A stretch of 64,000 bases of DNA, taken from a virus. Shown piece by piece: positions 2,335 through 45,475 of the stretch. Where the stretch lies: positions 1 through 64,000 of IMG/VR virus record IMGVR_UViG_3300025237_000002; one strand, 5' to 3'. A program made the translations under genes and the position numbers. Position 1 is the first letter of the stretch. Each line of letters opens with the position of its first letter. The notes beneath the pieces were generated by a model, which searched no databases, was not told the origin of the DNA, and saw nothing but the letters and a program-made list of their open reading frames with translations.

Positions 2335-3810
2335 ATGGAAATATTCAGATTGATAGTTTTAGGAATTTTTGTATACCTCATATACCTCATTATTTATGAC
2401 ATCTTCAATAAGAAACATGCTATAATGAGTAACTTCCCATTGATTGGAAGGCTTAGATACATTTTAGAGAAGATTGGACCAGAATTACGACAATACATTG
2501 TAGCTAGTAATAGAGAAGAAACCCCATTTAATAGACTTTGGCGAAATTACATATACGCATCTTCTAAAGGTGAAAATAATCTAACTGGGTTTGGTTCTGA
2601 CGCTGACTTTAACAAAACAGGACATTTCTTTCTTAAAACTTCTGTATTCCCAGTTAAAAATGATAATGTAACAACAATTCCAAGTGCAAAGATAATAGGC
2701 TCATGTAGAGATAAACCTTATAGACCAAAATCTGTTGTTAATATTTCAGCAATGAGTTATGGGTCATTAGGTAAAAAAGCAACTACGGCAAATAATATTG
2801 GAGCAGACATTGCTGGTGCTTACCATAATACTGGTGAGGGTGGATATTCACCCGAATATCATGGTAATGGGGCAGATGTTGTATTCCATATAGGTACAGG
2901 TTACTTTGGTTGTGGGGATACAGATGAAAATGGTCATAGACAATTTAATATGTGGAAGCTTAAAATGCTTGTTAATCTTAATCCAAATATTAAGATGATT
3001 GAACTTAAGTTATCGCAAGGTGCAAAACCAGGTAAGGGTGGAATACTTCCAGCGAATAAGGTAACACCAGAGATAGCAAAAGCAAGAGGTGTAAAAGTTG
3101 GTGAAACAGTTTATTCACCTTCATATCATAGTGCTTTTGATAATGTACACGATATGGTAAATCTGATTGAAGATATTGCTAACGAAACTGGTTTACCAGT
3201 TGGTATTAAATCGGCAGTTGGAAAGATGATTTTTTGGGATGATTTGGCTAGTTTAATGAATCGCACACACAAAGGTCCAGACTTCATAACAATTGATGGT
3301 GGTGAAGGTGGTACTGGAGCCGCACCAATTGCGTTTACCGATAACATGTCACTTCCACTAAGAGATGGGTTTGCACAAGTTTATAAAACGTTTCAAAAAT
3401 ATCATTTAGTAGATAGAATTACTTGGATAGCTTCGGGAAAGTTGGGTCACCCAACAAGAGCAGCAGTTGCATTTGCAATGGGAGCGGATTTAATCAATAT
3501 AGCAAGAGAAGTAATGATTTCTGCGGGTTGTATTCAAGCGCAACAATGTCACACTGGAAATTGTCCTACTGGTATTGCCACACACAAATGGTGGTTAGAG
3601 AAAGGTTTCAATGTAAAAGATAAATCTGAGAGGGTTGGTCTATTCATTAAAACCCTTGTTAAAGATATTCTTGAAGTAACTAATGCAAGTGGATACACAC
3701 ATCCTTGTGAATTTACAATGGACGATGTGATGTTCAATACAAGTGATTCTTCAAGAATGAAAAGCATGGAAGTGCTTTATGGTTATAAAAAAAATATAGT
3801 TAAAAGGTGA
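2335..3810 (+). CDS. FMN-binding glutamate synthase family protein
   Basis: SAMSYGSLG, NTGEGG, ELKLSQGAKPGKGGILP, IDGGEGGTGAAP and the CIQAQQCHTGNCPTGIAT Fe-S motif; N-terminal TM helix. Confidence 0.92.
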   Translation: MEIFRLIVLGIFVYLIYLIIYDIFNKKHAIMSNFPLIGRLRYILEKIGPELRQYIVASNREETPFNRLWRNYIYASSKGENNLTGFGSDADFNKTGHFFLKTSVFPVKNDNVTTIPSAKIIGSCRDKPYRPKSVVNISAMSYGSLGKKATTANNIGADIAGAYHNTGEGGYSPEYHGNGADVVFHIGTGYFGCGDTDENGHRQFNMWKLKMLVNLNPNIKMIELKLSQGAKPGKGGILPANKVTPEIAKARGVKVGETVYSPSYHSAFDNVHDMVNLIEDIANETGLPVGIKSAVGKMIFWDDLASLMNRTHKGPDFITIDGGEGGTGAAPIAFTDNMSLPLRDGFAQVYKTFQKYHLVDRITWIASGKLGHPTRAAVAFAMGADLINIAREVMISAGCIQAQQCHTGNCPTGIATHKWWLEKGFNVKDKSERVGLFIKTLVKDILEVTNASGYTHPCEFTMDDVMFNTSDSSRMKSMEVLYGYKKNIVKR

Positions 3811-16716: not shown

Positions 16717-18552
16717 ATGAAAACAATGTATTTAAAAATTTTCACAATCCTAGTATTCTTAACGGGATTTTCAAACTTATCAGCGCAAGATTTTATATTA
16801 GCACCTAATGGTGTTACTTGTCTATGTCCAACAGCAAGTGTTGGTGATACAGGGGATGTAAATGGAATTACTTATACCAAAAGAACAAGAGAAGATATTA
16901 CAGATGTAAATGCGGATACTACTTGTACGAGTGACATTACAGATATGTCAGAATTGTTTTGGGGTCACACTGATTTTAATGGTGATATTAGTTCTTGGGA
17001 TACGAGTTCTGTGGTTAACATGGAATTTACATTAGCAGATACACAAGTATTTAATCAAAATATAGGGTTTTGGGATGTGAGTTCTGTTACAAATATGAAA
17101 GCATTATTTGCTGGAGCTTCTTTATTTAATCAAGATATTAGTTCTTGGGATACGAGTTCTGTGGTTAACATGGAAGGATTATTTGCAGTTGCATCAGTTT
17201 TTAATCAAGATATAAATAGTTGGGATGTAGGTAATGTTACTAACATGACCAATATGTTTACAATGGCTTCTTTATTTAATCAAGATATAGAGATTTGGCA
17301 ATTCAACTCTAATGTTGAATTTGATAGTTTTGTCAGTAATTCTGGTTTGGATATAAATAATTATAACTCCTTGTTAAATGCTTTTTCAACTCAAAATCTA
17401 ACTAACAAAACATTAAATTCAGATAATTTAACTTATTGTAATATAACCGCTTGGGAAGATTTAGTAAATAATAAAGGTTGGACGATTTCAGGGGATACTT
17501 ATTCTCAAACTATTATCGAAGCACCAAATAATGTGGGTGTTGCACCAGATAGTGGCACTTGTATAGCTACAAATGTAGACCTTGGTACACCTACGATTAC
17601 TAATGCATGTGGAACTACAACAGTTACTAATGATGCGCCATCTGAATACCAAATAGGTGATACCGATATTATTTGGACAGTTGTCGATGAAAATGGTGTG
17701 GAATCAACAGATTTACAAACCGTATCAGTAATAATAGATGTCGATATTGCAGAACTATGTTATGTAAGTAGTGATGATATTGAAGTAACTAAAAATAGAG
17801 TCTTTCTTTTTAATATAGATGGGCTTAATGTTGATAATTATGAAGTGTTAAGAGAAACAACTACGGGTGGTGTTTATGAAACTATTGGTTTTATAGTACC
17901 ACCAGCAAATTCATTTTTGGATAATACATCAAATAACTCTACTCAAGCATATCGTTACAAAGTTCAAACTTTAGATATCTGTGGTACTTTGTCAGAAGAA
18001 TCACCTTATCATAAAACGATTTTATTGCAAAGTAGTATTGCGGCAAATAATACAATAAATCTTAGTTGGACACCATATGTTGGTACTGATTATACAACGT
18101 ATAATATTTTCAAACAGATTAACGGTGGGACTTTTGAATTATTTACTTCAATAGCGTCTACGAATTTAACATATAATGACATTGAAGTGGACTTATCAAT
18201 AAACTCATACGCATATTATGTTTCAATTGATGTCGCTGGTTGTATCGGAACACCATTTATGTCAGAGGCGATTAGGTCAAATCAAGATGGTACGATGATA
18301 CTTGATGTTGTAGACGTTGAACAATTGAAAAAATCTATTATTTTGTTTCCAAATCCATCAAGCTCAATAGTTAACGTTAGTGTTCCTAATGATGTGATGT
18401 TTAATAAAGTTAGTGTAATAAACAATATTGGACAAGTAGTTGCTAAATATAACACTAAGACTTTCAATGTTGAGAGTTTAATAGGTGGTATATATTACAT
18501 AACAATTGAAACCGATAAAGGCGTTTTTACTAAGAGATTAATAAAACGATAA
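16717..18552 (+). CDS. BspA/DUF285-repeat surface protein with HYR-like and FN3-like domains and a T9SS type A sorting domain
   Basis: Signal peptide; repeats FNQDISSWDTSSVVNM; C-terminal LFPNPSS...GIYYITI...TKRLIKR. Confidence 0.88.
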   Translation: MKTMYLKIFTILVFLTGFSNLSAQDFILAPNGVTCLCPTASVGDTGDVNGITYTKRTREDITDVNADTTCTSDITDMSELFWGHTDFNGDISSWDTSSVVNMEFTLADTQVFNQNIGFWDVSSVTNMKALFAGASLFNQDISSWDTSSVVNMEGLFAVASVFNQDINSWDVGNVTNMTNMFTMASLFNQDIEIWQFNSNVEFDSFVSNSGLDINNYNSLLNAFSTQNLTNKTLNSDNLTYCNITAWEDLVNNKGWTISGDTYSQTIIEAPNNVGVAPDSGTCIATNVDLGTPTITNACGTTTVTNDAPSEYQIGDTDIIWTVVDENGVESTDLQTVSVIIDVDIAELCYVSSDDIEVTKNRVFLFNIDGLNVDNYEVLRETTTGGVYETIGFIVPPANSFLDNTSNNSTQAYRYKVQTLDICGTLSEESPYHKTILLQSSIAANNTINLSWTPYVGTDYTTYNIFKQINGGTFELFTSIASTNLTYNDIEVDLSINSYAYYVSIDVAGCIGTPFMSEAIRSNQDGTMILDVVDVEQLKKSIILFPNPSSSIVNVSVPNDVMFNKVSVINNIGQVVAKYNTKTFNVESLIGGIYYITIETDKGVFTKRLIKR

Positions 18553-18555
18553 AAA

Positions 18556-19010
18556 CTTGTTTGTTAAATATATTTGTAGTATATTTGCAGAGTCAAAATT
18601 CAGGAATGGTAAATTGGTAAAGCACCATGGGGGAACTGTGGGATGTAGGTTCGAATCCTTAAGTATAGTGAAAGCTAAACGACTATGGTAGTATTGTAGG
18701 TTCAAGTCCTACTTCCTGAACAACTAAATGGTTAATAATCAACCATTTAAAAAAAGATTAAAAAAAATGTGATTTTTGCTTGTTTATTAAATATATATAT
18801 AGTACATTTGCAGAGTCGAAAGAAAGTTATTATGGTTAACATAAAACTTTTGAAAATAAATTCAAAAAGACTTGTTTATTACAATATAATGTAGTATATT
18901 TGCAGAGTCGAAAGAAAGTTATTATAGTGGTAAGTTATCACAATAAAAACTTTTTTAAATTAAAAGCAAAAAGACTTGTTTATTAAAATAATAAGTTGTA
19001 TATTTGCAAA
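18556..19010 (+). promoter_or_regulatory. Four tandem near-consensus promoters (-7 elements at 18580, 18803, 18895, 18999)
   Basis: Each is CTTGTTT-n-TAyATTTGCArAGTC. Confidence 0.8.
18600..18720 (+). tRNA. tRNA-like RNA with two T-arms or an insertion in the anticodon arm
   Basis: TCAGGAA/TTCCTGA acceptor; D-loop TGGTA; two GTAGG-TTCRA-TCCT arms. Confidence 0.5.
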
Positions 19011-19049
19011 GTCGTTTAGAAATAGACGACACGTTCTTAAAAATATTGA

Positions 19050-19932
19050 AAATAATGGGGTGCTTATACTCCTTCCTCTTCGGGGGATAAGATAAACCTA
19101 GTAATAGGGATAAAGCGATGTATTCAAAGTGCATTGCGTTGAGAAGACTTCTTCGGGAGTTTTAACAATCTATGTAAGCAATTAATCACGAACCATACAT
19201 CGAGGGGCTACTGTCATAGATGAATTGAGTTCACCTCCTAGCTTCGGGGGGTTGAGTTAGAAATAGCAAAAGATGATTAATTAGTTTTTGGTTGAAACAT
19301 GTAAAAAGTGGATAGGCTGAATTCATCATAATTTGTTATGGAATGTTACCTTGAAATGCGGCACCTAACAGAGTCGTAGATTGATAGGAGATGAACCTTC
19401 GGGTGATTCTTTAAATGTAAATCTAATTAATGAAGAAATGACGTGACTGTAAAAAGTTGCAACGGGATGTTGATAGCTAAAGTGCTCAAAAGGCAACACG
19501 CTAGTCAATCGCAAGACACATCCTGTAAGAGAGAGCATCGCTATACAACTAAGGTTAATAGCCTTAATTTTTAATTTGATAAAAATTGTAAAGAGAAAGT
19601 TCTTGTGGACATGGATAAAAAATTAAGTTATTCTACTGAAAAATGTAGATGATGGAGGCTCTCAAGGCTGAAGTTAAAACGAGAGAAGTATCGTTAGTAA
19701 GAGGTGGGAACCTTTGCATCCCTTCCAAGGGAACTAGGTAATGAAAGTTGTTTATATCAATTCATGGTGAGAAAGGTGAAAGCCTAATCGTTCTCTTCGG
19801 AGAATAAAAGAGTTTGCAGTTGCTAATTTAAAACTGTCTTAGTGATACCTACGGACACGAAAGTGAAAGTGTGTGATATAGGGAAACCGAAAACGAAAGG
19901 TATTATAAACGCCCAAACACTCAAGCGTTTAA
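19050..19932 (+). ncRNA. Giant structured non-coding RNA (~880 nt; GOLLD/ROOL-class candidate or new class)
   Basis: No ORF of 60 aa or more; five CTTCGG motifs and many GNRA-capped stems; strong promoter and boxA-like site upstream; tRNA-like gene directly downstream. Confidence 0.75.
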
Positions 19933-19934
19933 TC

Positions 19935-20009
19935 GGGGATGTAGCTTAATAGAGAGCGGCTTGGTTTCAAATCCAAGAGGATGTAGTATCGATTCTACCA
20001 TCCCCACCA
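19935..20009 (+). tRNA. Aberrant tRNA-like RNA (8-nt anticodon loop TTTCAAAT, encoded CCA)
   Basis: GGGGATG/CATCCCC-ACCA; D-loop lacks GG; T-arm GTAG-TATCGATT-CTAC. Confidence 0.6.
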
Positions 20010-20059
20010 ATAGACTTGATAAAGCCTCTTCCTTATTGGAACGTAATTAAGTATAGTAT

Positions 20060-20129
20060 GGGTATACAATTAAGGTTCTCACCAACCTTTAAGGTTGTAT
20101 CATAGGTTCAAATCCTTCTATACCCACTA
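20060..20129 (+). tRNA. tRNA-like RNA (acceptor plus T-arm, no canonical D-arm)
   Basis: GGGTATA/TATACCC-ACTA; AGG-TTCAAAT-CCT; 3' end shared with 23870-24061. Confidence 0.45.
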
Positions 20130-20136
20130 AAATTAA

Positions 20137-20205
20137 AGAGGTCTCGTCTAATTAAAGATGGTCAGCGTAAGTTGACAGATGTGGTTGGAAACACCATAGT
20201 CTCTA
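20137..20205 (+). tRNA. tRNA-like RNA with a GTAA tetraloop in place of the anticodon loop
   Basis: D-arm GTCT-AATTAA-AGAT; GTCAGC-GTAA-GTTGAC; T-arm GTGGT-TGGAAAC-ACCAT. Confidence 0.45.
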
Positions 20206-20382
20206 AAGAAGTTTAGGTTCGGTAGTCCGATAGTGAAGTACAAACGATAGTTTAACGACAACCTTTATACTAAAATAGTTCTCATTGGCTATTCAATTCA
20301 ATGGGTATGACCCAACTTTAATGTTGGTTGATACTACAAGGGGAGTGTCGTAAAAACCTACAAGTTAGTCGTGTAGCGAAAA

Positions 20383-20454
20383 GGGAATGTCGTCTAATAG
20401 AAGGCAGCTGGCGTGAAGCTGGAAAATGTAGTATCAAATCTACCATTCCCACTA
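20383..20454 (+). tRNA. Aberrant tRNA-like RNA (5-nt GTGAA loop)
   Basis: GGGAATG/CATTCCC-ACTA; same D-loop AATAGA and T-arm type GTAG-TATCAAAT-CTAC as 19935. Confidence 0.55.
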
Positions 20455-20662
20455 AAGGATATGCACGAATGCAGTTAAGCGATACCTTTCAAATCGGAGG
20501 AACTGTACAAGGAGTAACTGAAATAGGTTTTCCAAAATAGATTTTTTGAGTAGTGGGTGTAAATACCGTATAAAGGTAAGCAACAAGAAAGAAAAAATAA
20601 TAGTAAATCCTAAGACTTGCGAAAGCTGGTTCAATAACAAATAGTTAGGTAATCTATTAAAT

Positions 20663-20743
20663 GGGGGTATAGCCCACACCTGTCGTGAAGATGGTGAAGT
20701 GGTAACTATGCTGAGAATGTAACTGTGAATGTTGCTACCTCCA
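20663..20743 (+). tRNA. tRNA-like RNA
   Basis: GGGGGTA/TACCTCC-A acceptor; GTAAC-TGTGAAT-GTTGC T-like arm. Confidence 0.35.
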
Positions 20744-20826
20744 CAAATTGAGTTTAGTTTTGCGGTTAAGTTCTCAATTAAATAAAAAACTGGTGGGGTG
20801 TTAAACCCCATCGTAAACGCCCAATT

Positions 20827-20902
20827 GACACTGGGATAGCTTAGTAAAGAGCAACCCGAAATTATAAGAGGTAGTGTGAGGTATTGAATCCTCAATCAGT
20901 GT
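20827..20902 (+). tRNA. tRNA-like RNA ending the first ncRNA operon
   Basis: ACACTGG/TCAGTGT; GCTT-AGTAAA-GAGC; TGAGG-TATTGAAT-CCTCA; T-run follows. Confidence 0.4.
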
Positions 20903-21008
20903 TTTTTAAAAATAAATGAAAATAAATTAGGATGTTTGAATACTTTTATGTATTTTTGCATACTTATTATAAACGCACTAAGTGCAAAACGATTAAAAAA
21001 TAGAAATT

Positions 21009-21110
21009 ATGACAACAGTAACGACATATACGAAACAGTATCAACCGAAGGGCGGGAAGCCACAAGGTCAACTGAGTATGCGTTGTTATAACGATGAAGA
21101 AGAAGGATAA
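21009..21110 (+). CDS. 33-aa attenuator leader peptide MTTVTTYTKQYQPKGGKPQGQLSMRCYNDEEEG
   Basis: A-rich start after the promoter element TATTTTTG (20951-20958); codons 2-21 are almost all Thr/Tyr/Lys/Gln/Pro/Gly. Confidence 0.8.
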   Translation: MTTVTTYTKQYQPKGGKPQGQLSMRCYNDEEEG

Positions 21111-21138
21111 GTTCTTAATCATAATAAACAATATAGCT

Positions 21139-21170
21139 AAACCCAGTTGAAATCTTCAACTGGGTTTTTT
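21139..21170 (+). terminator. Attenuator terminator upstream of the tRNA array
   Basis: 13-bp stem AAACCCAGTTGAA/TTCAACTGGGTTT with a T-run; the 5' arm can instead pair with TCAACTGAGT (21068-21077). Confidence 0.85.
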
Positions 21171-21235
21171 GCGTTCTATAGGTTTTTCATCACCTGATAA
21201 AAAAGATGAATCTTTGAAATATTGTATTTTTTTAT

Positions 21236-21308
21236 CGGGAAGTATATCAATTGGTAGATTACGTGCTTTGGGAGTACGAGGTTGGAGGTTCGAGTCCTCT
21301 CTTTCCGA
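21236..21308 (+). tRNA. tRNA-Pro(TGG)
   Basis: CGTGC-TTTGGGA-GTACG; canonical T-loop. Confidence 0.9.
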
Positions 21309-21368
21309 CTTAGGGAGACTGTTATTAATTCATAGGACCAATTGTGGTAATCATAGAATTAAATGTAT

Positions 21369-21444
21369 CGGGGTGTGGTGCAGTAGGCGATACACGCCTG
21401 TTTTGGAAACAGGAGGTTCGAGGGTTCGAATCCCTTTGCCCCGA
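21369..21444 (+). tRNA. tRNA-Pro(TGG)
   Basis: CCTGT-TTTGGAA-ACAGG; C1-G72, A73. Confidence 0.9.
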
Positions 21445-21450
21445 CAAAAA

Positions 21451-21600
21451 ATAAACTTGTAGTTTAAAATGGCAACAACAAGTATGTATGATAATTAGCT
21501 GAACAGGTACCGTCAGTGAAAGGTGTATAGAAAGGGGTTGCAGAATTAGAATGTGTGGTAGAGGACCGCAAGATGTGAGTTCAAATCTCACCAAAGTTAT
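21451..21600 (+). ncRNA. tRNA-like RNA with a large central insertion
   Basis: D-like arm, ~75-nt interior, T-arm GTGAG-TTCAAAT-CTCAC, imperfect acceptor. Confidence 0.4.
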
Positions 21601-21608
21601 TTTTATAT

Positions 21609-21703
21609 CTACCAATGCACGAGTCGGTTTAAGTGGCTGGGCTTGGACCCCAGTGACAGCTTCATGAGGTTGCTGTCCGTAGGTTCGAATCCTACTTGGT
21701 AGA
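21609..21703 (+). tRNA. tRNA-Pro(TGG) with a long variable arm
   Basis: CTGGG-CTTGGAC-CCCAG; variable arm GACAGC...GCTGTC. Confidence 0.8.
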
Positions 21704-21769
21704 CGAGTTGGAGACTGTTATTAATTCATAGGACTGTCAGATACAGTGTATAAGCATAGAATTAAATCT

Positions 21770-21843
21770 TGGGATATCGACTAGCGGTCCAAGTCATCTG
21801 GTTTTGAACCAGAAGAGCGAGGGTTCGAATCCCTCTATCCTAA
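21770..21843 (+). tRNA. tRNA-Gln(TTG)
   Basis: TCTGG-TTTTGAA-CCAGA. Confidence 0.9.
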
Positions 21844-21911
21844 CTACCAATATATTGTCTATTTAGTCGATATATTGGCAAAATAGATAACATATTGTCT
21901 ATTTTATTACT

Positions 21912-21996
21912 GGGGGTGCGCCAAAGTTGGAGAGTTGGGGCGGTCTGTAAAACCGTTGCGTAAGCTGAGTAGGTTCGATTCCTATCACCCCCACCA
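21912..21996 (+). tRNA. tRNA-Tyr(GTA)
   Basis: GCGGT-CTGTAAA-ACCGT, long variable arm, encoded CCA. Confidence 0.92.
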
Positions 21997-22006
21997 GTAT
22001 ATATAT

Positions 22007-22079
22007 TCCCTCGAAGCTCAAGTGGACGGGCACCCCGCTTTTAACGGGGAGATTGCGGGTTCGAAGCCCGCTGGGGGAA
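22007..22079 (+). tRNA. tRNA-Lys(TTT)
   Basis: CCCCG-CTTTTAA-CGGGG. Confidence 0.9.
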
Positions 22080-22124
22080 CTGAGAGAGTTATTACGTTCT
22101 CTTCGACAAGAAAAAACGTAATTT

Positions 22125-22206
22125 GGGAGTATTGAGCAACTGGTCGCTCAGCAGATTGTAAATCTGTCGCCTTCGGGCATTGTGGGTTCGAATCCCTCTA
22201 TTCCCA
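22125..22206 (+). tRNA. tRNA-Tyr(GTA)
   Basis: GCAGA-TTGTAAA-TCTGT; variable arm GCC-TTCG-GGC. Confidence 0.9.
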
Positions 22207-22208
22207 CT

Positions 22209-22276
22209 AGAGTTCGTCTAAGCTAAAAGGCATCGCCTGAACGGTGAAAATGTAGGAGAATACCCTATACTCTTAA
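22209..22276 (+). pseudogene. Degenerate tRNA (possibly Phe GAA)
   Basis: Cloverleaf with a non-canonical T-loop AGAATAC and a short acceptor. Confidence 0.35.
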
Positions 22277-22280
22277 CTAT

Positions 22281-22391
22281 GGCTATAGTACTACGGTGTA
22301 CCATTCGATGAATATATTGAGTTGAATGAGAGTGGATGTGTGAGTGTTACATCACATCTTCGGTTGGGTTCGAATCCCTAGGTAGCCACCA
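22281..22391 (+). ncRNA. Enlarged tRNA-like RNA with encoded CCA
   Basis: GGCTAT/GTAGCC-ACCA; GTAC-TACGGT-GTAC; long CATTC/GAATG and GATG/CATC arms; T-loop TTCGAAT. Confidence 0.55.
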
Positions 22392-22419
22392 GATGTATGT
22401 TTTTGTACATTAATAATAT

Positions 22420-22493
22420 ACCTTCGTAGCTCAACTGGCTAGAGCACCTGACTTTTAATCAGGGGGTTGGGGGTTCGAGTCCCTTCGGGGGTA
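22420..22493 (+). tRNA. tRNA-Lys(TTT)
   Basis: CCTGA-CTTTTAA-TCAGG. Confidence 0.93.
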
Positions 22494-22536
22494 CTGAGAG
22501 GGTTCTATGCTCCCTTAACACAGAAAAAGCATAACT

Positions 22537-22611
22537 GCTACCTTAGTATAAAGGCGATTACTCTGCATTTGTAACGCAGAAATCTCGGTTCGATTCCGTG
22601 AGGTAGCTCCA
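22537..22611 (+). tRNA. tRNA-Thr(TGT)
   Basis: CTGCA-TTTGTAA-CGCAG; encoded CCA. Confidence 0.85.
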
Positions 22612-22692
22612 AAACTACTAACTCATACCGAAAAGTATGTTAATTTGGATGATTATGTATACCACTAATCATCCAAGTGTTAGAACAAATAT

Positions 22693-22765
22693 TGCTCCAT
22701 GGTGTAATTGGTAACACGTCTGTTTTTGGTGCAGAAGAGTGTGGGTTCGAGACCCGCTGGAGTAA
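22693..22765 (+). tRNA. tRNA-Gln(TTG)
   Basis: TCTGT-TTTTGGT-GCAGA. Confidence 0.9.
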
Positions 22766-22772
22766 CAAATAT

Positions 22773-22846
22773 TGCCCTATGGTGTAATTGGTTAACATAC
22801 GAGATTTTGGCTCTCGTGAGTGTGGGTTCGAGTCCCACTAGGGCTT
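22773..22846 (+). tRNA. tRNA-Gln(TTG)
   Basis: CGAGA-TTTTGGC-TCTCG. Confidence 0.9.
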
Positions 22847-22888
22847 CAAAGGGAGATGTTCACCTAACATCTTTAAAAATAGGTTTAT

Positions 22889-22975
22889 CCCCTCATAGCT
22901 CAGTTGGTTTGGCGAAAGCCTTAGAGCATCCGTCTTTTAAACGGAGGGTCGTAGGTTCGAATCCTACTGGGGGGA
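22889..22975 (+). tRNA. tRNA-Lys(TTT) with a GGC-GAAA-GCC hairpin inserted in the D-loop
   Basis: TCCGT-CTTTTAA-ACGGA. Confidence 0.85.
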
Positions 22976-22982
22976 CAATAAA

Positions 22983-23053
22983 CGATGTGTGGTGTAATGT
23001 TAGCACGAGTTCCATTGGGGGACTTAGAAGAGGTTCAATTCCTTTCTCATCGA
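22983..23053 (+). tRNA. Degenerate tRNA, probably Pro(TGG)
   Basis: C1-G72, A73; irregular anticodon loop containing TTGG. Confidence 0.5.
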
Positions 23054-23058
23054 CAAAT

Positions 23059-23144
23059 GCGGTGTTAGTGTAATGGACAAATATTCTAGATGAAAACACG
23101 CAACCATTCAGGTTGAGATAGAGGTTCGATTCCTTTATGCCGCT
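23059..23144 (+). tRNA. Degenerate Gly-like tRNA (D-loop insertion, 5-nt loop ATTCA)
   Basis: GCGGTGT/ATGCCGC, U73, canonical T-arm. Confidence 0.45.
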
Positions 23145-23321
23145 CTAAAAATGATTGATATGAAAGAAATGAAATTTAGATATACTGGTGAATTATCTGA
23201 AGAAGCTAAGGTTAAATTAGATAAATTAAAGTTAAGAAAAGAAACAACATTGAAAAACCTACAAGATGATTATGACTCTGGTAAGTTTGACGATGAATTT
23301 AAAAACCTATAAAATTATGTT

Positions 23322-23513
23322 ATGGATATTGAGAATTATTCAATCGGAGATGTATTAAGGAACAAACAAGGAATTAATGGTAAGGTGATTGGAAAGACGA
23401 TAAATTCAATTAATTTATATCATACAGCTAGAAGTAGTAAAGGTATTAATTGTACTCAATGGTACACATTACAAGACATAATTAAAAATTTTAAACATGC
23501 CGTCATAGTTTAA
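23322..23513 (+). CDS. hypothetical protein inside the tRNA array
   Basis: 63-aa ORF whose 3' end overlaps the tRNA-Thr 5' end. Confidence 0.5.
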   Translation: MDIENYSIGDVLRNKQGINGKVIGKTINSINLYHTARSSKGINCTQWYTLQDIIKNFKHAVIV

Positions 23514-23574
23514 GTGGTTAGAATCCTAGTGTGGTATATTAGGGGTGTCGCTTCGATTGCGATTGATGGCTCCA
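23499..23574 (+). tRNA. tRNA-Thr(GGT)
   Basis: CTAGT-GTGGTAT-ATTAG; encoded CCA. Confidence 0.8.
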
Positions 23575-23620
23575 CGACCAGCTGATAGTCTGGGATAACA
23601 ATAAATTAAAACTATCAAAA

Positions 23621-23694
23621 GCGAGTAACGCATAAGTGGTGGTGCGCCAGCCTTCCAAGCTGGAATAGAGTCGGTTCGATACCGTCTACTCGCT
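23621..23694 (+). tRNA. tRNA-Gly(TCC)
   Basis: CCAGC-CTTCCAA-GCTGG; U73. Confidence 0.9.
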
Positions 23695-23789
23695 CAAAAA
23701 AGGGGTGCTTTAATATAACCAATGACAATAGCGTTATAAATTGCTGAACTTTCTACCAAATTGATTTTTGTCGATGATATAAGGTAGTT

Positions 23790-23862
23790 GTCCTATTAGT
23801 TTAACTGGATAAAACTGGGGGTGCTAAACCCTCGGATGTGGGTTCGAATCCCATATAGGAAA
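23790..23862 (+). tRNA. tRNA with CTA at the anticodon position (amber-suppressor-like, G33)
   Basis: GGGGG-TGCTAAA-CCCTC; canonical D- and T-arms; 1-72 mismatch. Confidence 0.65.
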
Positions 23863-23869
23863 CAATTAA

Positions 23870-24061
23870 GGGTATACTTTTGGTGTGATGAACCGACCCT
23901 CCGAGAATGGAGGTGCTTTAACTAGCTAAGTATTGAAAACGTTGAGAACATAAACTAAAGTATAGATGTACGAATACTGGGTCTGAATTATGTTAGTAGG
24001 CAAGTAAGTGGATACACGACTTCCAATCGGTATCTAGGTTTGAAACCTTCTATACCCACTA
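23870..24061 (+). ncRNA. ~190-nt RNA closed by a tRNA-like acceptor and T-arm
   Basis: GGGTATA...TATACCC-ACTA; 3' part resembles a Gly(TCC) D/anticodon/T region. Confidence 0.45.
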
Positions 24062-24118
24062 AAAACTATTTACTTATATTTAATTTTTTAGTATATTTGT
24101 TTATAAAAATTAAATATT

Positions 24119-24418
24119 ATGTATGATGAAAAAGTAAGTATGGGAAATAACCCTATGACAGTTAAAAAGTTGTCAGAATTAGAAAATATAATTTCTAACT
24201 TTAAAGTAGAATTAAGTAAATTAAGTGAAAATAATTATGAATTACTTAATAAGGTAGATAAAATGGTTGGTTGCGAACTACAAGATGATTGTGCAGAAAA
24301 ATCAAGTCCAACGGATGAAAATATTGTTGATGTCCTCAACGAATGTATCCGTGAATTAGGTTATAAAAATAATAATTTTAGAGAGCAATTAAGTAGATTA
24401 GGTGGTATTGTTGGATAA
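24119..24418 (+). CDS. hypothetical coiled-coil protein
   Basis: 99-aa ORF after a promoter motif. Confidence 0.6.
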   Translation: MYDEKVSMGNNPMTVKKLSELENIISNFKVELSKLSENNYELLNKVDKMVGCELQDDCAEKSSPTDENIVDVLNECIRELGYKNNNFREQLSRLGGIVG

Positions 24419-24479
24419 CCATTAAGAATGATTACTGGAGTAGAGTACCTTAATGGTCAGGTTGATAACCTCTACAAAT

Positions 24480-24551
24480 GCGGGAATAGCTCAACGGTAG
24501 AGCGTTAGATTACCAATTTAAAGGTTGTGGGTTCGAATCCCATTTCCCGCC
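24480..24551 (+). tRNA. tRNA-Gly(ACC)
   Basis: Gly-type body GCGGGAA/TTCCCGC; TTAGA-TTACCAA-TTTAA. Confidence 0.85.
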
Positions 24552-24560
24552 CAATACAAT

Positions 24561-24646
24561 GCAGTAGTCGCATAGAGGTCGATTGCCCCAGATTTCCAAT
24601 CTGGTAAGATAATATCACATCGCTGGTTCGAATCCAGTCTACTGCT
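24561..24646 (+). tRNA. tRNA-Gly(TCC) with a long variable arm
   Basis: CCAGA-TTTCCAA-TCTGG; ~17-nt variable region. Confidence 0.85.
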
Positions 24647-24709
24647 CAACACGAGTTTCATCTGAAACATGTATTTTAAACATGGTTTCAGACATAACTC
24701 AAACATTAT

Positions 24710-24793
24710 GCCTACGTCCCATAGAGGTCGATTGGACTAGATTTGTAATCTAGAATGGAAACATCATCGTGGGTTCGAATCCCTCCGTAGGCT
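24710..24793 (+). tRNA. tRNA-Thr(TGT) with a long variable arm
   Basis: CTAGA-TTTGTAA-TCTAG; variable arm ATG-GAAA-CAT. Confidence 0.85.
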
Positions 24794-24860
24794 CATAAAA
24801 AATACAATTTTCTTGTGTAATCCAATTTTTTTCATTATCTTTGTAATCTAAATACAAACT

Positions 24861-37251: not shown

Positions 37252-38343
37252 ATGAGTAAAGAAAAAGAATTCCTTAAGGATTATATTAAAACCCCATCAC
37301 CGAGTGGGTATGAAATGCAATTAGGTGGACAAAAGGTGTGGATTGATTATGTATCACAATATGCTAATAGGGTCGAGGTTGATAACTATGGAAATGCTTA
37401 TGCTTATTACGGAAGTAGAATTGTTGAAGATGGTGTTGTTACTAAAAAAAGAAAACCCCACACCGTATTGCTAGACGCACATGCTGACGAAATTGGATTT
37501 TTTGTATTTGATATTACGTCTAAAGGGTTCCTTAAAATCGGTTGTCTAGGTGGAAGTGATATTACAATAGCACCATCATCTAGAGTGAATATATGGACTA
37601 AAAACGGTCCAGTTAAAGGTGTTTTTGGACACCCAGCTATTCATGTACATGGACGTAAATTTGAGGCTAAAAAAGAAGATATGTTTGTTGATATCGGAGT
37701 GTCATCTAAGAAAAAAGTGAGTAAATTAGGTATTGTAGTTGGTGACCCAATCACAATGGTTGACGGTTATATGGAATTAGGTGATTATCACTGTGGTAGA
37801 GCGTTAGATGACAAAATAGGTGGTTATATAACTTCTCAAGTATTACGAAGTTTAAGTGAGAATGAGATAGAATTGTCTTTTGAATTGGTTATCGTTAATG
37901 CAGTTCAAGAAGAAGTTGGATTATATGGTGCTAAAATGGCAGCGCAAAGGGTTAAACCTGACGTTGCAATCGCAATTGATGTTACGCATGACACAACAAG
38001 TCCATGTTATAACCCAAATAAACAAGGTTCTTTAACTGCTGGTAATGGTATTGTTATAATGACAGCACCATCATTACATAAAAAAGTTGTGGAATTATTG
38101 GTTGATACAGCGATTGAGAATAAAATTAAGTATCAAAGAATCGCAAGTGGTGGTTCATCAGGTACAAATGCAGACGCTTATGCATATCCACATGGAATCC
38201 CAACAGCGTTGCTTAAAATGGCAATGAGATATATGCATACAACTGTAGAGACAGTTCATAAAAAAGATGTTAAATCTGCTATTGAATTGCTATATAAGGT
38301 GTTACAAACACCAGAAATAACTGAATCATTTAAGTATGATTAG
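37252..38343 (+). CDS. M42 family metallopeptidase
   Basis: AHADEIG, LDDKIG, QEEVG, DVTH, RYMHT. Confidence 0.92.
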   Translation: MSKEKEFLKDYIKTPSPSGYEMQLGGQKVWIDYVSQYANRVEVDNYGNAYAYYGSRIVEDGVVTKKRKPHTVLLDAHADEIGFFVFDITSKGFLKIGCLGGSDITIAPSSRVNIWTKNGPVKGVFGHPAIHVHGRKFEAKKEDMFVDIGVSSKKKVSKLGIVVGDPITMVDGYMELGDYHCGRALDDKIGGYITSQVLRSLSENEIELSFELVIVNAVQEEVGLYGAKMAAQRVKPDVAIAIDVTHDTTSPCYNPNKQGSLTAGNGIVIMTAPSLHKKVVELLVDTAIENKIKYQRIASGGSSGTNADAYAYPHGIPTALLKMAMRYMHTTVETVHKKDVKSAIELLYKVLQTPEITESFKYD

Positions 38344-40999: not shown

Positions 41000-42034
41000 A
41001 TGGTGGAAATACAAAAAATGATTGACCCAAAAGATTATGAAATCGGAGTTGCAGTAGCTAGATTTCAAGGGAAGAGATTACACGAAGGACATAAACAAAT
41101 GCTTGACCTTATAACTAGTAATCATAATAAAGTGATTATCTTCTTAGGGGTACCTAAAATTAGTAATACGAGAAGAAATCCATTGGACTTTGCAACTCGT
41201 AGGTTAATGATTCAAAAATTATACCCTAATGTGGTAATCCTACCACAACATGACCAACGTTCTGATGAAGTTTGGTCAAGAGCATTAGACGCTCAAATAT
41301 CAACGCCATTCGGAGATGGAAAAGCTTTACTATACGGTAGTAGAGATTCATTCATACCACATTACGAAGGTAAACATACCACAACAATATTAACTGATAT
41401 TCCAAACGTAAGTGGAACTGAACTAAGAGATAAGGTAGCAAGTGAAATTCTTCCTAACTCTAGTTTTAGAGCGGGTGTTATATATGCAAATTATGCACGT
41501 AGACCAGTCACTTATTCAACCGTTGACGTAGCAATACATAACGACAAGGGTCAATTCTTATTGGCTAAAAAACCACACGAGAAGCATTGGCGATTCGTTG
41601 GTGGGTTTGTAGATAGAGAAGATGAGAGTGATGAACAAGCCGTTATTAGAGAGGCTTCGGAAGAAACCAATGGTTGTCACATAGGTAATATAAGATACAT
41701 ATTATCACAAAAAGTTGATGATTGGAGATATCGAAGAGAAGCAGATGGTATTATGACACGTTTATTCCTTACATCATATGTTTTTGGTAATCCTAAAGCA
41801 ACTGATGACCTTGCAAATGGTGGTGATTTGCAATGGCACGATATATCTTACTTCACAGAAGCTAGACGTATTGAAAATGAAATTATGCCTGAACACCAAA
41901 GTTTGATGACTCAATTAATTGAGAAAATCTATACTGATAAAATGGTTCCTAACTTGGGTAGATTCCACGTACCATTTATAGAGGAACGTGACCCTGATGC
42001 TGTAGTAGAAAACACCGAATTTATACCTAAATAA
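41000..42034 (+). CDS. nadM: Bifunctional NMN adenylyltransferase / ADP-ribose pyrophosphatase (NadM-Nudix)
   Basis: ARFQ..LHEGH, RNPL, SGTELR; Nudix box GGFVD..DES...IREASEET. Confidence 0.88.
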   Translation: MVEIQKMIDPKDYEIGVAVARFQGKRLHEGHKQMLDLITSNHNKVIIFLGVPKISNTRRNPLDFATRRLMIQKLYPNVVILPQHDQRSDEVWSRALDAQISTPFGDGKALLYGSRDSFIPHYEGKHTTTILTDIPNVSGTELRDKVASEILPNSSFRAGVIYANYARRPVTYSTVDVAIHNDKGQFLLAKKPHEKHWRFVGGFVDREDESDEQAVIREASEETNGCHIGNIRYILSQKVDDWRYRREADGIMTRLFLTSYVFGNPKATDDLANGGDLQWHDISYFTEARRIENEIMPEHQSLMTQLIEKIYTDKMVPNLGRFHVPFIEERDPDAVVENTEFIPK

Positions 42035-43807: not shown

Positions 43808-45475
43808 ATGGAGAAAGAAAGAGGAATCACAATTAGTTCTGTAAATGAAGTGGTATTACCACAAAGAAAAGTCTTTGACACACCAAGACTATTACAAGCT
43901 GATGCTTACACTGTAGGTTCAGATGGTTTTCAATCTGTGAAAGCTAAAGAGAAATCAACTTATTATATTGTCTTCCGTAGACAACTATCAACAGTAAACC
44001 CAACCTTATATAATAAGGGTGACGATAGAATGATATTTGAAGGTCTAGGAACTTATTTAGAAAAATTATTCTACAAACCAGTTACTCACGAAGAAATTGA
44101 TACCGCTAAAGAATTCTTGAAAACGTTCAAAGCGACTTCATTAGGATTAGCTGAGTATGCTTTTCCTGAAGCTATGTGGCGTAGAGTAGTAGACGAATTC
44201 AATGGTAGACCACCAATCAAAATTAAGGCAATGCCTAACGGTTCTGTGGTTTATCCTAACGAACCAATCATACAAATAGAATCAATGGTTAACGGTATGG
44301 GTGAACTAGCCGCTTGGTTTGAGTCAACACTTCTTAAAGTGTGGGCACCTTCTGAACGTGTTACCCAAAACGAACATTGGTTATCTAAGTTGAAAAATAT
44401 GCTTAGAAAGGTTTATGGTACTACCATGAGCGAAGAAGATATTCACTTCAAAGCATCTCTTATGCTAACAGATTTCGGTGATAGAGCTGGAATGACAAAC
44501 GAAGAAAGTGAAGTATTAGGTATGGCTCACTTGTATACATTTCCAGGAACTGATAACTGCCAAGGAGCATATCAAGCATGGGAAAATGCGGGAAGAGTTC
44601 CAATCGGAAGTTCAGTTAATGCACTAGCACATAGAAATATACAAGCGTATGACGTAGAGAATGACTGTTATGAAGCGATTTATGATTTCTGTCAAAACGG
44701 AGAATTCATTTCAATGGTTTCTGACTGTTACGATTTCTACACTGCGAATGAAAAATACATACTACCTCTTGCTAAAAGAAGTATTGCGGAAGGTAACAAT
44801 AAGGTAGTTGTTTCAAGACCTGATTCAGGTAATGCGAAAGAACAAGTACTTTGGTTATGTAGATTAGCTGTAAGAAATGGTTTATACACAACTCAAGTTA
44901 TCGATGGTGTTGAATGGAAATTCGCCACATCACTTAGATTTATTGAAGGTGATGGAATGACGTGGGCTGATATGTGGGAAATCATTGAAGCTTTATTAGA
45001 AGCTGGATTTGCACCTGACGCTTGGGGATTATTCGGAGTAGGTGGTGGATTAAGAAACCCACTTAAACGTGATAACACTTCAGCAAAATATGCTTTATGT
45101 GCAAAAGGAGATGACAACGAAGGAGTTGTTAAATTCTCAGATACCCTAGGAAAGACAACACTTCCAGGACCTTTTAAAATCCTAAGAACACCTTGGGCTT
45201 TAGAAAATAAGGAAACAATCGTATTTGAACATGAAGATGGTGACGATGCAATGGTGGTTTACTTCGATGGTAGTAACATTTGGAAACCATTTGGAGTAGG
45301 ACAAGATGATAACTTCTTGGTCACTAGAGACAGAATAAGAACACAATGGGATTCAATGCCATTGAACCTTACAACTGCTACAAATCATAATTATCCAGCT
45401 TCAGAGGCTATTCTAAATGAGCGTAGAAGATTACTTAAAATTCATGCTCCTAAGAAACAAGCTAAAAACTATTAA
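43808..45475 (+). CDS. nadV: Nicotinamide phosphoribosyltransferase family protein
   Basis: ADAY, DFGDR, GTD, SDCYD, RPDSG, EGDG, GVGGGL, RD. Confidence 0.85.
   Translation: MEKERGITISSVNEVVLPQRKVFDTPRLLQADAYTVGSDGFQSVKAKEKSTYYIVFRRQLSTVNPTLYNKGDDRMIFEGLGTYLEKLFYKPVTHEEIDTAKEFLKTFKATSLGLAEYAFPEAMWRRVVDEFNGRPPIKIKAMPNGSVVYPNEPIIQIESMVNGMGELAAWFESTLLKVWAPSERVTQNEHWLSKLKNMLRKVYGTTMSEEDIHFKASLMLTDFGDRAGMTNEESEVLGMAHLYTFPGTDNCQGAYQAWENAGRVPIGSSVNALAHRNIQAYDVENDCYEAIYDFCQNGEFISMVSDCYDFYTANEKYILPLAKRSIAEGNNKVVVSRPDSGNAKEQVLWLCRLAVRNGLYTTQVIDGVEWKFATSLRFIEGDGMTWADMWEIIEALLEAGFAPDAWGLFGVGGGLRNPLKRDNTSAKYALCAKGDDNEGVVKFSDTLGKTTLPGPFKILRTPWALENKETIVFEHEDGDDAMVVYFDGSNIWKPFGVGQDDNFLVTRDRIRTQWDSMPLNLTTATNHNYPASEAILNERRRLLKIHAPKKQAKNY

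What the first reader, a model, noticed from the sequence alone, without database searches (positions are those of the whole stretch)
19050..19932. ~880-nt ORF-free, highly structured RNA expressed like an rRNA operon
Seen: CTTCGG motifs at 19078, 19151, 19242, 19397 and 19795, at least four capping clear stems. A back-of-envelope estimate at this base composition gives well under one by chance. GNRA-capped stems include CCTA-GTAA-TAGG, TC-GCAA-GA, CAC-GAAA-GTG and GG-GAAA-CC. Long-range helices include TGCTTATA/TGTAAGCA, ACGGGATGT/ACATCCTGT and TGATACCT/AGGTATTA. It lies downstream of tandem promoters and a boxA-like site, and is followed by a tRNA-like gene that could set its 3' end through RNase P cleavage. 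Known: GOLLD and ROOL are large ornate RNAs of unknown function often found beside phage tRNAs. Inference: this is a divergent member of such a class or a new giant RNA.
Basis: partly seen in the sequence, partly recalled or inferred. Interest (0 to 1): 0.85.

Follow-up and report, generated by a model that had tools for sequence, protein, structure and literature searches.

The report
Divergent GOLLD RNA of marine phage

Summary
Window 19053-19934 (+) encodes a discrete ~0.88-kb non-coding RNA. In detail: five CTTCGG on one strand against ~0.06 expected, and no long open frame even with TGA and TAG read through.

It is a divergent GOLLD RNA. Rfam RF02032 matches 19462-19768 at 42 bits (E 4e-9; curated cut-off 150). 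Relatives score higher: 57, 73 and 97 bits in its own clade, up to 104 bits in the wider subfamily.

I collected 46 relatives (32 non-redundant) from phage contigs and metagenomes. In the 3' domain 52 of 59 predicted pairs show compensatory changes. In the 5' domain 22 of 58 do.

Contigs of 853-895 nt from four marine metatranscriptome runs cover only 19053/65 to 19915/56. They cover none of the flanking gene or tRNA array.

Clade members examined share a Bacteroidota-type promoter with a conserved leader upstream; most also have a non-decoding tRNA-like element directly downstream.

Function is unknown, as for all GOLLDs. The likely mechanism, self-assembly into an RNA-only cage during lytic infection, is inferred by homology.

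This scan reached the same verdict on other giant phages (e1-5389545, e1-5389565).

The parts
18976..19011 (+). Promoter-like element directly upstream of the RNA (TTGTTT...TATATTTGCAAAG; -7 box TAnnTTTG at 18999-19006). It is the fourth of four tandem copies; the others are at 18557-18592, 18780-18815 and 18872-18907.
   Evidence: 4 matches in 64 kb, all here, 0 expected; the same element stands upstream of the RNA in all 10 clade members aligned. The Bacteroidota promoter type (TTTG / TAnnTTTG) is from my own knowledge.
19012..19052 (+). Leader: hairpin GTCGT/ACGAC (19011-15/19026-30) and the conserved motif GTTCTTAAAAATATTG (19033-19048, boxA-like by resemblance only). It is absent from the RNA contigs, so it is probably removed.
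   Evidence: conservation of GTTCT.AAAATATT; contigs start at 19053-19065 with no loose ends there, except 6 unaligned letters in one run.
19053..19934 (+). The RNA itself, about 880 nt, a divergent GOLLD RNA. Its ends are approximate.
   Evidence: single contigs of 853-895 nt in 4 RNA runs span 19053/59/61/65 to 19915/26/55/56. (GOLLD model). (covariation).
19053..19461 (+). 5' domain, the variable half of GOLLDs. Hairpins at 19074-87 (cUUCGg), 19098-108 (GUAA loop), 19115-37, 19198-222, 19233-52, 19256-67, 19288-320 and 19443-60. A lineage-specific expansion at about 19340-19420 carries the 19397 UUCG hairpin.
   Evidence: 93.5% of cells paired against ~40% when slid; 22 pairs with compensatory changes against 3-6; no sequence similarity to the 5' halves of canonical GOLLDs.
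19462..19526 (+). P13/P14-like three-tier hairpin with the invariant A-rich loop UCAAAAG (19486-19492), the equivalent of GOLLD L14.
   Evidence: aligned to model positions 1-58; outer helix 100% paired, loop invariant in 32 of 32; the strain variant has four compensatory double changes here. The naming of L14 follows PMC12990946.
19527..19589 (+). Variable A/U-rich linker (J13/15 equivalent) with a small hairpin at 19552-19566. It holds no tRNA.
   Evidence: unalignable, length-variable region; aligned to the model's unpaired linker; no tRNA hit there.
19590..19767 (+). Core of the 3' domain. Junction motif AAAGAGAAAGU (19590-19600); long-range helix 19609-16/19760-67; hairpins 19632-49, 19650-76 (loop CUCUCAAGG), 19700-15 and 19719-31 (loop UUCCAA).
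   Evidence: Rfam alignment; covariation, coordinates.
19768..19804 (+). Insertion of 37 nt found only in this RNA and its strain variant, carrying the cUUCGg hairpin of 19795.
   Evidence: gap in all 31 other sequences; the contigs span it with no deletion reported there.
19805..19934 (+). 3' part of the 3' domain (P22-P27 equivalents). Hairpin 19817-36; helix 19843-49/19899-905 enclosing two hairpins; terminal hairpin 19909-12/19925-28 with the invariant loop motif CUCA.
   Evidence: the close relative L009 aligns here to model positions 300-416.
19935..20006 (+). tRNA-like unit directly 3' of the RNA, with an 8-nt anticodon loop and an atypical T-loop. It is a likely RNase P handle that sets the 3' end.
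   Evidence: Rfam tRNA, 44.6 bits; not called by ARAGORN; present in most clade members, with a covarying acceptor stem and a variable anticodon arm. L320 1255-1322, 47 bits.
21139..21167 (+). First strong intrinsic-terminator-like site on the + strand downstream of the RNA. Its position suggests co-transcription of the RNA with the tRNA-like units.
   Evidence: no strong + strand terminator-like site (long stem plus T run) between 19072 and 21139; one weak 5-pair match at 20302-20314.

Best explanation
Window 19053-19934 (+) is the gene of a divergent GOLLD RNA carried by an uncultured marine giant phage. The host is probably a Bacteroidota bacterium.

Shown: it is non-coding. Both halves are held in shape by selection. 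It is homologous to the GOLLD 3' domain. It accumulates as a discrete ~0.88-kb molecule in marine metatranscriptome runs, while the neighbouring phage genes left no contigs in the four runs laid.

Inferred from anatomy: transcription starts at a dedicated strong promoter, the last of four tandem copies, and runs through a conserved leader. The transcript continues into a row of tRNA-like units up to a terminator at 21139-21167. The mature RNA is then cut out. The leader is removed at about 19053. The 3' end is probably set by RNase P cutting at the 5' side of the tRNA-like unit at 19935.

Inferred by homology only: like the two GOLLDs solved by cryo-EM, copies of the RNA assemble without protein into a closed dihedral cage during lytic infection. 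The conserved 3' domain would form the ring and the lineage-specific 5' domain the cap. What the cage does is unknown for the whole family. My best guess is bulk sequestration or storage of translation components such as tRNAs.
For: Identity:
- Rfam RF02032 matches 19462-19768 at 42.1 bits, E 4.1e-9, and is the only large-RNA family hit.
- The nearest relatives hit the full 416-position model: L002 57 bits, L272 73 bits, L009 97 bits. Other subfamily members reach up to 104 bits, E to 1e-30.
- nhmmer ties all of these to the window at E 1e-58 to 1e-87.
- L009 aligns to every helix of the model except one hairpin, and the window aligns to L009 along its whole length.

Structure:
- 3' domain, 14 sequences: 92.8% paired against 35-44% when slid, with 0 of 500 shuffles as high.
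- 3' domain, 32 sequences: 52 of 59 pairs have compensatory changes.
- 5' domain, 7 sequences: 93.5% paired against ~40% when slid, and 22 compensatory pairs against 3-6.

Expression:
- 16 metatranscriptome runs hold part of the queried stretch; 13 of them hold about half of its sampled words.
- In four runs, single contigs of 853-895 nt cover only 19053-19956. The rest of the laid stretch (17500-22500) is bare but for a few short pieces.
- The contigs come from a strain about 97.5% identical, whose differences include four compensatory double changes.

Cassette:
- The promoter and leader are conserved in the clade.
- A tRNA-like unit with a covarying acceptor stem follows in most members.
- No strong terminator-like site precedes 21139.

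Context:
- The RNA sits at the head of a tRNA array of 20 genes, as is typical of GOLLDs (10.1101/2024.12.08.627333; PMC12990946).
- The flanking protein carries a T9SS sorting domain, which points to a Bacteroidota host.
Against: - The Rfam score is far below the curated cut-off (42 against 150 bits). The window's own alignment covers only about the first 300 model positions.
- A sequence-only profile of the subfamily barely detects canonical GOLLDs (E 0.007-0.015). The link therefore rests on the covariance model and on chained relatives.
- The hairpin after the GCAA-loop hairpin of the model (the P20/P21 region) is missing. An extra hairpin stands before it. Published structures place contacts between chains in that region, so cage formation and copy number cannot be assumed.
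- Contigs cannot give exact ends, strand or level. Two of the four run about 20 nt into the tRNA-like unit.
- Processing by RNase P, leader function and any cellular role are untested.
Confidence: 0.85

Rival explanations
1. It belongs to a new class of giant phage RNA that merely occupies the same niche as GOLLD beside tRNA arrays, and the weak Rfam match is convergence or chance.
For: The score is 42 bits against a cut-off of 150. nhmmer from the subfamily hardly sees canonical GOLLDs. The 5' domain has no detectable similarity to canonical 5' domains. The P20/P21 region differs.
Against: E is 4e-9 for the window and reaches 1e-30 for subfamily members over the full-length model. The helix-by-helix correspondence includes the invariant loop UCAAAAG, the junction AAAGnnAAAGU, the GCAAG-type loops and the terminal CUCA loop. 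The two-domain size and layout are the same. A variable 5' half is itself a GOLLD trait (10.1101/2024.12.08.627333).
Confidence: 0.06
2. It is only a long structured spacer or processing scaffold of a tRNA-type operon, a precursor segment that is cut away, with no function as a free molecule.
For: It appears to be co-transcribed with tRNA-like units, since no strong terminator-like site precedes 21139. Relatives have genuine tRNAs directly on both sides.
Against: The full-length molecule, not the tRNA-like units, is what assembles from the RNA libraries of four runs. About 880 nt of covarying structure is conserved across 32 non-redundant lineages. It has a dedicated promoter. Solved homologues form ordered assemblies (PMC12990946).
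Confidence: 0.05
3. It is a self-splicing intron, another ribozyme or a recoded protein gene.
For: Hammerhead ribozymes stand near the homologous RNA in relatives (L006, L320, L008). The phage carries a CTA-anticodon tRNA, so recoding had to be checked.
Against: No intron, RNase P, tmRNA or ribozyme model matches inside 19050-19934 at E up to 10. No frame is open beyond 78 aa on + even with TGA=W and TAG=Q. Substitutions follow base pairs, not codons.
Confidence: 0.02

Closest known systems
GOLLD RNA (Rfam RF02032; cryo-EM of env-38 14-mer and S. agalactiae 12-mer, 10.1101/2024.12.08.627333 and PMC12990946)
   Same: Size of about 0.8-0.9 kb. A variable 5' domain plus a conserved 3' domain. P13/P14 hairpin with the invariant A-rich loop. 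A variable single-stranded linker after it. The AAAGnnAAAGU junction, the long-range helix, GCAAG-type loops and a terminal hairpin with a CUCA loop. Location in a phage at a tRNA array. High expression.
   Different: It scores 42 bits; its subfamily scores 57-104 bits; all are under the cut-off of 150. One hairpin of the P20/P21 region is missing and another is added. It has a 37-nt private insertion at 19768-19804. Its own Bacteroidota-type promoter and leader precede it. A non-decoding tRNA-like unit follows it, in place of a genuine tRNA in this clade. The 5' domain has no sequence similarity to canonical ones.
ROOL RNA (large ornate RNA of phages and prophages beside tRNA islands; forms 6- to 8-mer cages)
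   Same: The same genomic niche, a similar size class, and RNA-only cage formation in the solved members.
   Different: No match to any ROOL model at E up to 10. [quoted passage not shown]
3' end formation by a tRNA-like element (MALAT1/mascRNA in vertebrates; my own knowledge)
   Same: A long stable non-coding RNA is directly followed by a conserved tRNA-shaped unit that need not decode. RNase P cleavage at its 5' side would create the long RNA's 3' end.
   Different: The setting is bacterial and phage-borne. Cleavage is not shown here. Relatives use genuine tRNAs or possibly hammerhead ribozymes in the same place.
rRNA operon leaders with boxA antitermination sites (my own knowledge)
   Same: Tandem strong promoters, a conserved leader motif (GTTCTTtAAAATATT) resembling boxA (GCTCTTTAACAA), and a leader that is removed from the stable RNA.
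   Different: This is a resemblance only. There is no evidence of Nus-factor binding or antitermination, and no check against Bacteroidota rrn leaders was done.

Membership tests
GOLLD RNA (RF02032) | Match to the curated covariance model at or above its gathering score (150 bits) | tested here: not met
   42.1 bits, E 4.1e-9, model 1-416 with the last ~115 positions unaligned. Relatives score 57-104 bits, all below 150. Canonical GOLLDs found by the same scan score 187-323 bits. The match is significant but sub-threshold.
GOLLD RNA (RF02032) | Conserved 3' domain architecture (P13/P14 hairpin, linker, long-range helix enclosing hairpins, P22-P27 part, terminal hairpin) | tested here: met
   The window aligns to the model for P13 to the closing strand of the long-range helix. 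Its close relative L009 aligns to all helices but one over positions 1-416. The window is homologous to L009 along the whole 3' domain. 52 of 59 pairs covary. Exception: the hairpin after the GCAA-loop hairpin is absent and an extra hairpin precedes it.
GOLLD RNA (RF02032) | Invariant A-rich loop of the P14 hairpin (L14; makes a minor-groove contact between chains in solved structures) | tested here: met
   UCAAAAG at 19486-19492 is invariant in 32 of 32 sequences and flanked by covarying stems. The role of L14 is taken from PMC12990946 and 10.1101/2024.12.08.627333.
GOLLD RNA (RF02032) | Variable, poorly conserved 5' domain of ~400 nt, giving a total length of 700-850+ nt | tested here: met
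   The 5' domain is 19053-19461 (409 nt). It is alignable only within the subfamily and has no nhmmer hit to canonical GOLLD loci. Total length is ~880 nt.
GOLLD RNA (RF02032) | Phage or prophage location next to or within tRNA arrays | tested here: met
   The window lies in a 110.5-kb viral record that looks like a phage. A tRNA-like unit lies at 19935 and 20 tRNA genes at 21236-24794. Relatives are flanked by tRNA-Met or tRNA-Asn and tRNA-Pro or tRNA-Lys.
GOLLD RNA (RF02032) | Kissing loop between L20 and the J13/15 linker, and symmetric L21 kissing loops (contacts between chains) | tested here: inconclusive
   By eye I found no convincing complementarity between the UUCCAA loop (19723-28) and the linker. 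The linker does not align across the subfamily, and the P21 hairpin is missing.
GOLLD RNA (RF02032) | Protein-free assembly into a closed homo-oligomer (10-, 12- or 14-mer) | not testable with these tools
   This needs mass photometry or cryo-EM of the transcript.
ROOL RNA | Match to the Rfam ROOL model | tested here: not met
   No ROOL hit among all matches up to E 10 in 18500-21300.

The most novel reading that the evidence does not exclude
The window RNA may belong to a coherent GOLLD lineage that falls below the curated Rfam cut-off and may be undescribed. I found 46 members in large phages from marine, rumen, gut and freshwater samples. Its marine Bacteroidota-phage clade would have a fixed three-part expression cassette: a dedicated promoter, a boxA-like leader, and a non-decoding tRNA-like unit as 3' processing handle. 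Its P20/P21 region, where the half-cages join in solved GOLLDs, is rearranged. In the ocean RNA libraries I laid, it is the only part of a 5-kb stretch of the phage genome that assembled into a sizeable matching contig. That would fit a bulk, stoichiometric role, possibly as a cage with a different copy number.
Probability: 0.45. Interest if true: 0.5.

Novelty: new member of a known kind. Interest (0 to 1): 0.35.

Why it matters
GOLLD is one of the largest bacterial and phage non-coding RNAs. It forms RNA-only cages, and its function has been unknown since 2009.

This finding adds a lineage that the curated Rfam cut-off does not capture. It extends the family to a marine giant phage whose likely host is a Bacteroidota bacterium. 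It also gives natural evidence of strong expression and of selection on base pairs between two co-occurring strains.

The rearranged P20/P21 region and the private insertions capped by UUCG loops are natural variants. They could help to test which contacts set cage size.

The finding does not reveal the function, and the phage is uncultured. It is a useful extension, not a surprise.

Tried and rejected
- blastn of 19000-19940 against 50,697 GenBank phage records gave no match.
- The first cmscan of the relatives L002 and L003 at E up to 1 missed GOLLD, presumably a filter effect. A later search scored L002 at 57 bits. L006, L083, L326 and L320 were likewise missed by Infernal's filters although nhmmer places them in the family.
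- Two pattern matches, L007 8241-8423 and L010, did not align with the family and were dropped.
- Of about 240 loci fetched by the genome and metagenome pattern scans, only 32 passed nhmmer. The recurrent Flavobacterium hits with constant spacing lie, in the one I checked, inside a 368-aa protein gene and are chance matches.
- nhmmer profiles of the subfamily against canonical GOLLD loci gave nothing for the 5' domain and only E 0.007-0.015 for the 3' domain.
- RNAalifold's pairing of 19066-72 with 19464-70 conflicts with the covarying P13 helix. I treat it as an artefact of the sequence ends chosen. Its long-range helix 19172-82 with 19339-49 rests on G-U and invariant pairs, so I left it out.
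- I looked by eye for complementarity between the linker and the candidate L20 loop and found nothing convincing.
- I built no covariance model of my own and ran no reciprocal search, because the calibration size limit is about 190 positions.
- Parts of 17500-22500 without contig cover in the RNA runs are reported only as absence of assembled contigs, not as proof of silence.

Full report
**Setting.** The window is the first 64 kb of a 110.5-kb viral record that CheckV rates 31% complete. That suggests a giant phage. The ORFs of 120 aa or more lie almost all on the + strand, and G+C is about 32%. The ORF just upstream of the finding (16717-18549) carries DUF285 repeats and a T9SS C-terminal sorting domain. 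Together with the TTG...TAnnTTTG promoter type (my own knowledge), this points to a Bacteroidota host. The public runs that hold the sequence are marine.

**Observation.** All five CTTCGG sites are present on the + strand. About 0.06 are expected for 885 nt of one strand, so five is a chance of roughly 5e-9 by my arithmetic. Four of them cap stems. The one at 19242 sits in a larger loop. In the window's clade, UUCG hairpins recur at the places of 19078, 19151 and 19397. No frame is open. The longest ORF is 59 aa under table 11. It is at most 78 aa on + with TGA=W and TAG=Q. I checked recoding because the phage has a CTA-anticodon tRNA. The single-sequence fold is only mildly better than shuffles, z = -2.4.

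**Identity.** At gathering thresholds Rfam finds only tRNAs in the window. In E-value mode on 18500-21300, the GOLLD model RF02032 matches 19462-19768 at 42.1 bits, E 4.1e-9. The match begins about 410 nt after the RNA's start, where GOLLD's conserved 3' domain should begin. It reproduces four features:
- the P13/P14 hairpin with loop UCAAAAG;
- the A/U-rich linker;
- the junction AAAGnnAAAGU;
- two hairpins with CAAG loops.

No other large-RNA family appears at E up to 10.

**Relatives.** A phage encoding a 62%-identical copy of the upstream protein (L002/L003) has a homologous RNA in the same place. DNA pattern scans of viral, genome and metagenome collections, sifted with nhmmer, gave 46 members, of which 32 are non-redundant.

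| Group | Rfam GOLLD score |
|---|---|
| Window | 42 bits |
| Window's clade: L002, L272, L009 | 57, 73, 97 bits |
| Other subfamily members scored | 68-104 bits |
| Canonical GOLLDs found by the same pattern | 187-323 bits |

All subfamily hits cover the full model. L009 aligns to every model helix except the hairpin that follows the GCAA-loop hairpin, and it has an extra hairpin before that. The window aligns to L009 end to end. The window also has a private 37-nt insertion at 19768-19804, which probably explains why its own Rfam alignment breaks off there. A sequence-only profile of the subfamily barely detects canonical GOLLDs. The subfamily is therefore a distant branch, and the link rests on the covariance model plus chained relatives.

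**Structure.**
- 3' domain, 14 sequences: 92.8% of cells are paired against 35-44% for slid controls. The covariation score is 0.73 against about 0.1, and 0 of 500 shuffles reach it.
- 3' domain, 32 sequences: 52 of 59 predicted pairs show compensatory changes.
- 5' domain, 7 clade members: 93.5% paired against about 40%, and 22 compensatory pairs against 3-6.

TGCTTATA/TGTAAGCA is conserved but almost invariant, so it stays open. A local hairpin at 19057-72 is an alternative.

**Expression.** Sixteen marine metatranscriptome runs hold part of the 1.2-kb query, and 13 of them hold about half of its sampled words. I laid four runs on 17500-22500. Each gives one contig of 853-895 nt covering 19053/59/61/65 to 19915/26/55/56. 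Apart from that, only a few short pieces lie on the stretch: fragments of 18-38 nt on tRNA-like sequence, and in one run two low-depth pieces, one of 150 nt at 20504-20653. The four runs carry four study codes from two years, but these may not be independent campaigns.

The contigs come from a strain about 97.5% identical. Its differences include G19484:C19494 to A:U, U19483:A19495 to C:G, G19482/A19496 to C:G and G19476:C19501 to A:U (my reading). These are compensatory changes between co-occurring strains. Contigs cannot fix exact ends, strand or level.

**Expression cassette.** The element TTGTTT...TAnnTTTGCARAG occurs four times in the window, all at 18557-19011. The last copy and a leader with the motif GTTCTTtAAAATATT are conserved upstream of the RNA in all ten clade members aligned. 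The contigs start after this leader.

Directly 3' of the terminal hairpin, most clade members carry a tRNA-shaped unit. Its acceptor stem covaries (GGGGATG, AGTGATG, GGAGATA, GGAAGTA, GGGCGTA), while its anticodon arm is variable. Rfam scores it as tRNA at 44.6 bits, but ARAGORN does not call it. More distant members have genuine tRNAs on both sides. No strong + strand terminator-like site precedes 21139.

I infer transcription through the tRNA-like row and release of the RNA by processing, with RNase P setting the 3' end. None of this is shown.

**Mechanism and comparison.** Published cryo-EM shows that env-38 GOLLD forms a 14-mer cage and S. agalactiae GOLLD a 12-mer. The 3' domains form the ring and the 5' domains the cap. 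Differences in P7-P11 and P21 change the copy number (10.1101/2024.12.08.627333; PMC12990946). By homology the window RNA most likely also self-assembles. The invariant L14-like loop fits this. The rearranged P20/P21 region leaves both the stoichiometry and cage closure open. The function of the family is unknown, and so is this RNA's.

**Verdict.** This is a new, divergent member of a known kind. This scan reached the same verdict for similar RNAs in other giant phages.

Noticed in passing
window 18600-18720: A tRNA-like unit with a long internal insertion (Rfam tRNA 30.8 bits over 121 nt), behind the first of the four tandem promoter copies.
   Followed up: no
window 20060-20126 and on to about 20900: Further tRNA-like units that neither ARAGORN nor Rfam's gathering score calls (Rfam 20.5 bits at 20060-20126). 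The stretch 20007-21236 has only one ORF above 100 aa, on the - strand.
   Followed up: no
window 21236-24794: An array of 20 tRNA genes. It includes a CTA-anticodon (amber-reading) tRNA at 23790-23863, and several tRNAs with long variable arms on Pro, Gly and Thr anticodons.
   Followed up: no
L006 6991-7072 (-), L320 2291-2368 (+), L008 2074-2132 (+): Sub-threshold hammerhead ribozyme matches (RAGATH-1 at 50 and 49 bits; type III at 43 bits) near the homologous GOLLD-like RNA and tRNAs of related phages. In L006 the match lies about 70 nt downstream of the RNA. These may be alternative processing devices.
   Followed up: partly
L007 5893-6253 (-), L008 13034-13294 (+): tmRNA matches in the same RNA-gene regions of related phages: standard tmRNA at 54 bits (over its cut-off) in L007, and permuted tmRNA at 39 bits (sub-threshold) in L008.
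   Followed up: no
window 16717-18552: A phage-encoded protein with DUF285 repeats and a T9SS C-terminal sorting domain. I used it here only to infer a Bacteroidota host.
   Followed up: partly
window 2335-3810, 37252-38343, 41000-42034, 43808-45475: Metabolic genes in the phage: a glutamate-synthase-type domain, an M42 aminopeptidase, a NUDIX hydrolase and a nicotinamide/nicotinate phosphoribosyltransferase (NAD salvage).
   Followed up: no
window 19768-19804 and about 19340-19420: Lineage-specific expansion segments of the RNA, each ending in a cUUCGg hairpin. The 3' one is absent from all 31 other sequences aligned, yet it is present in the expressed strain variant.
   Followed up: partly
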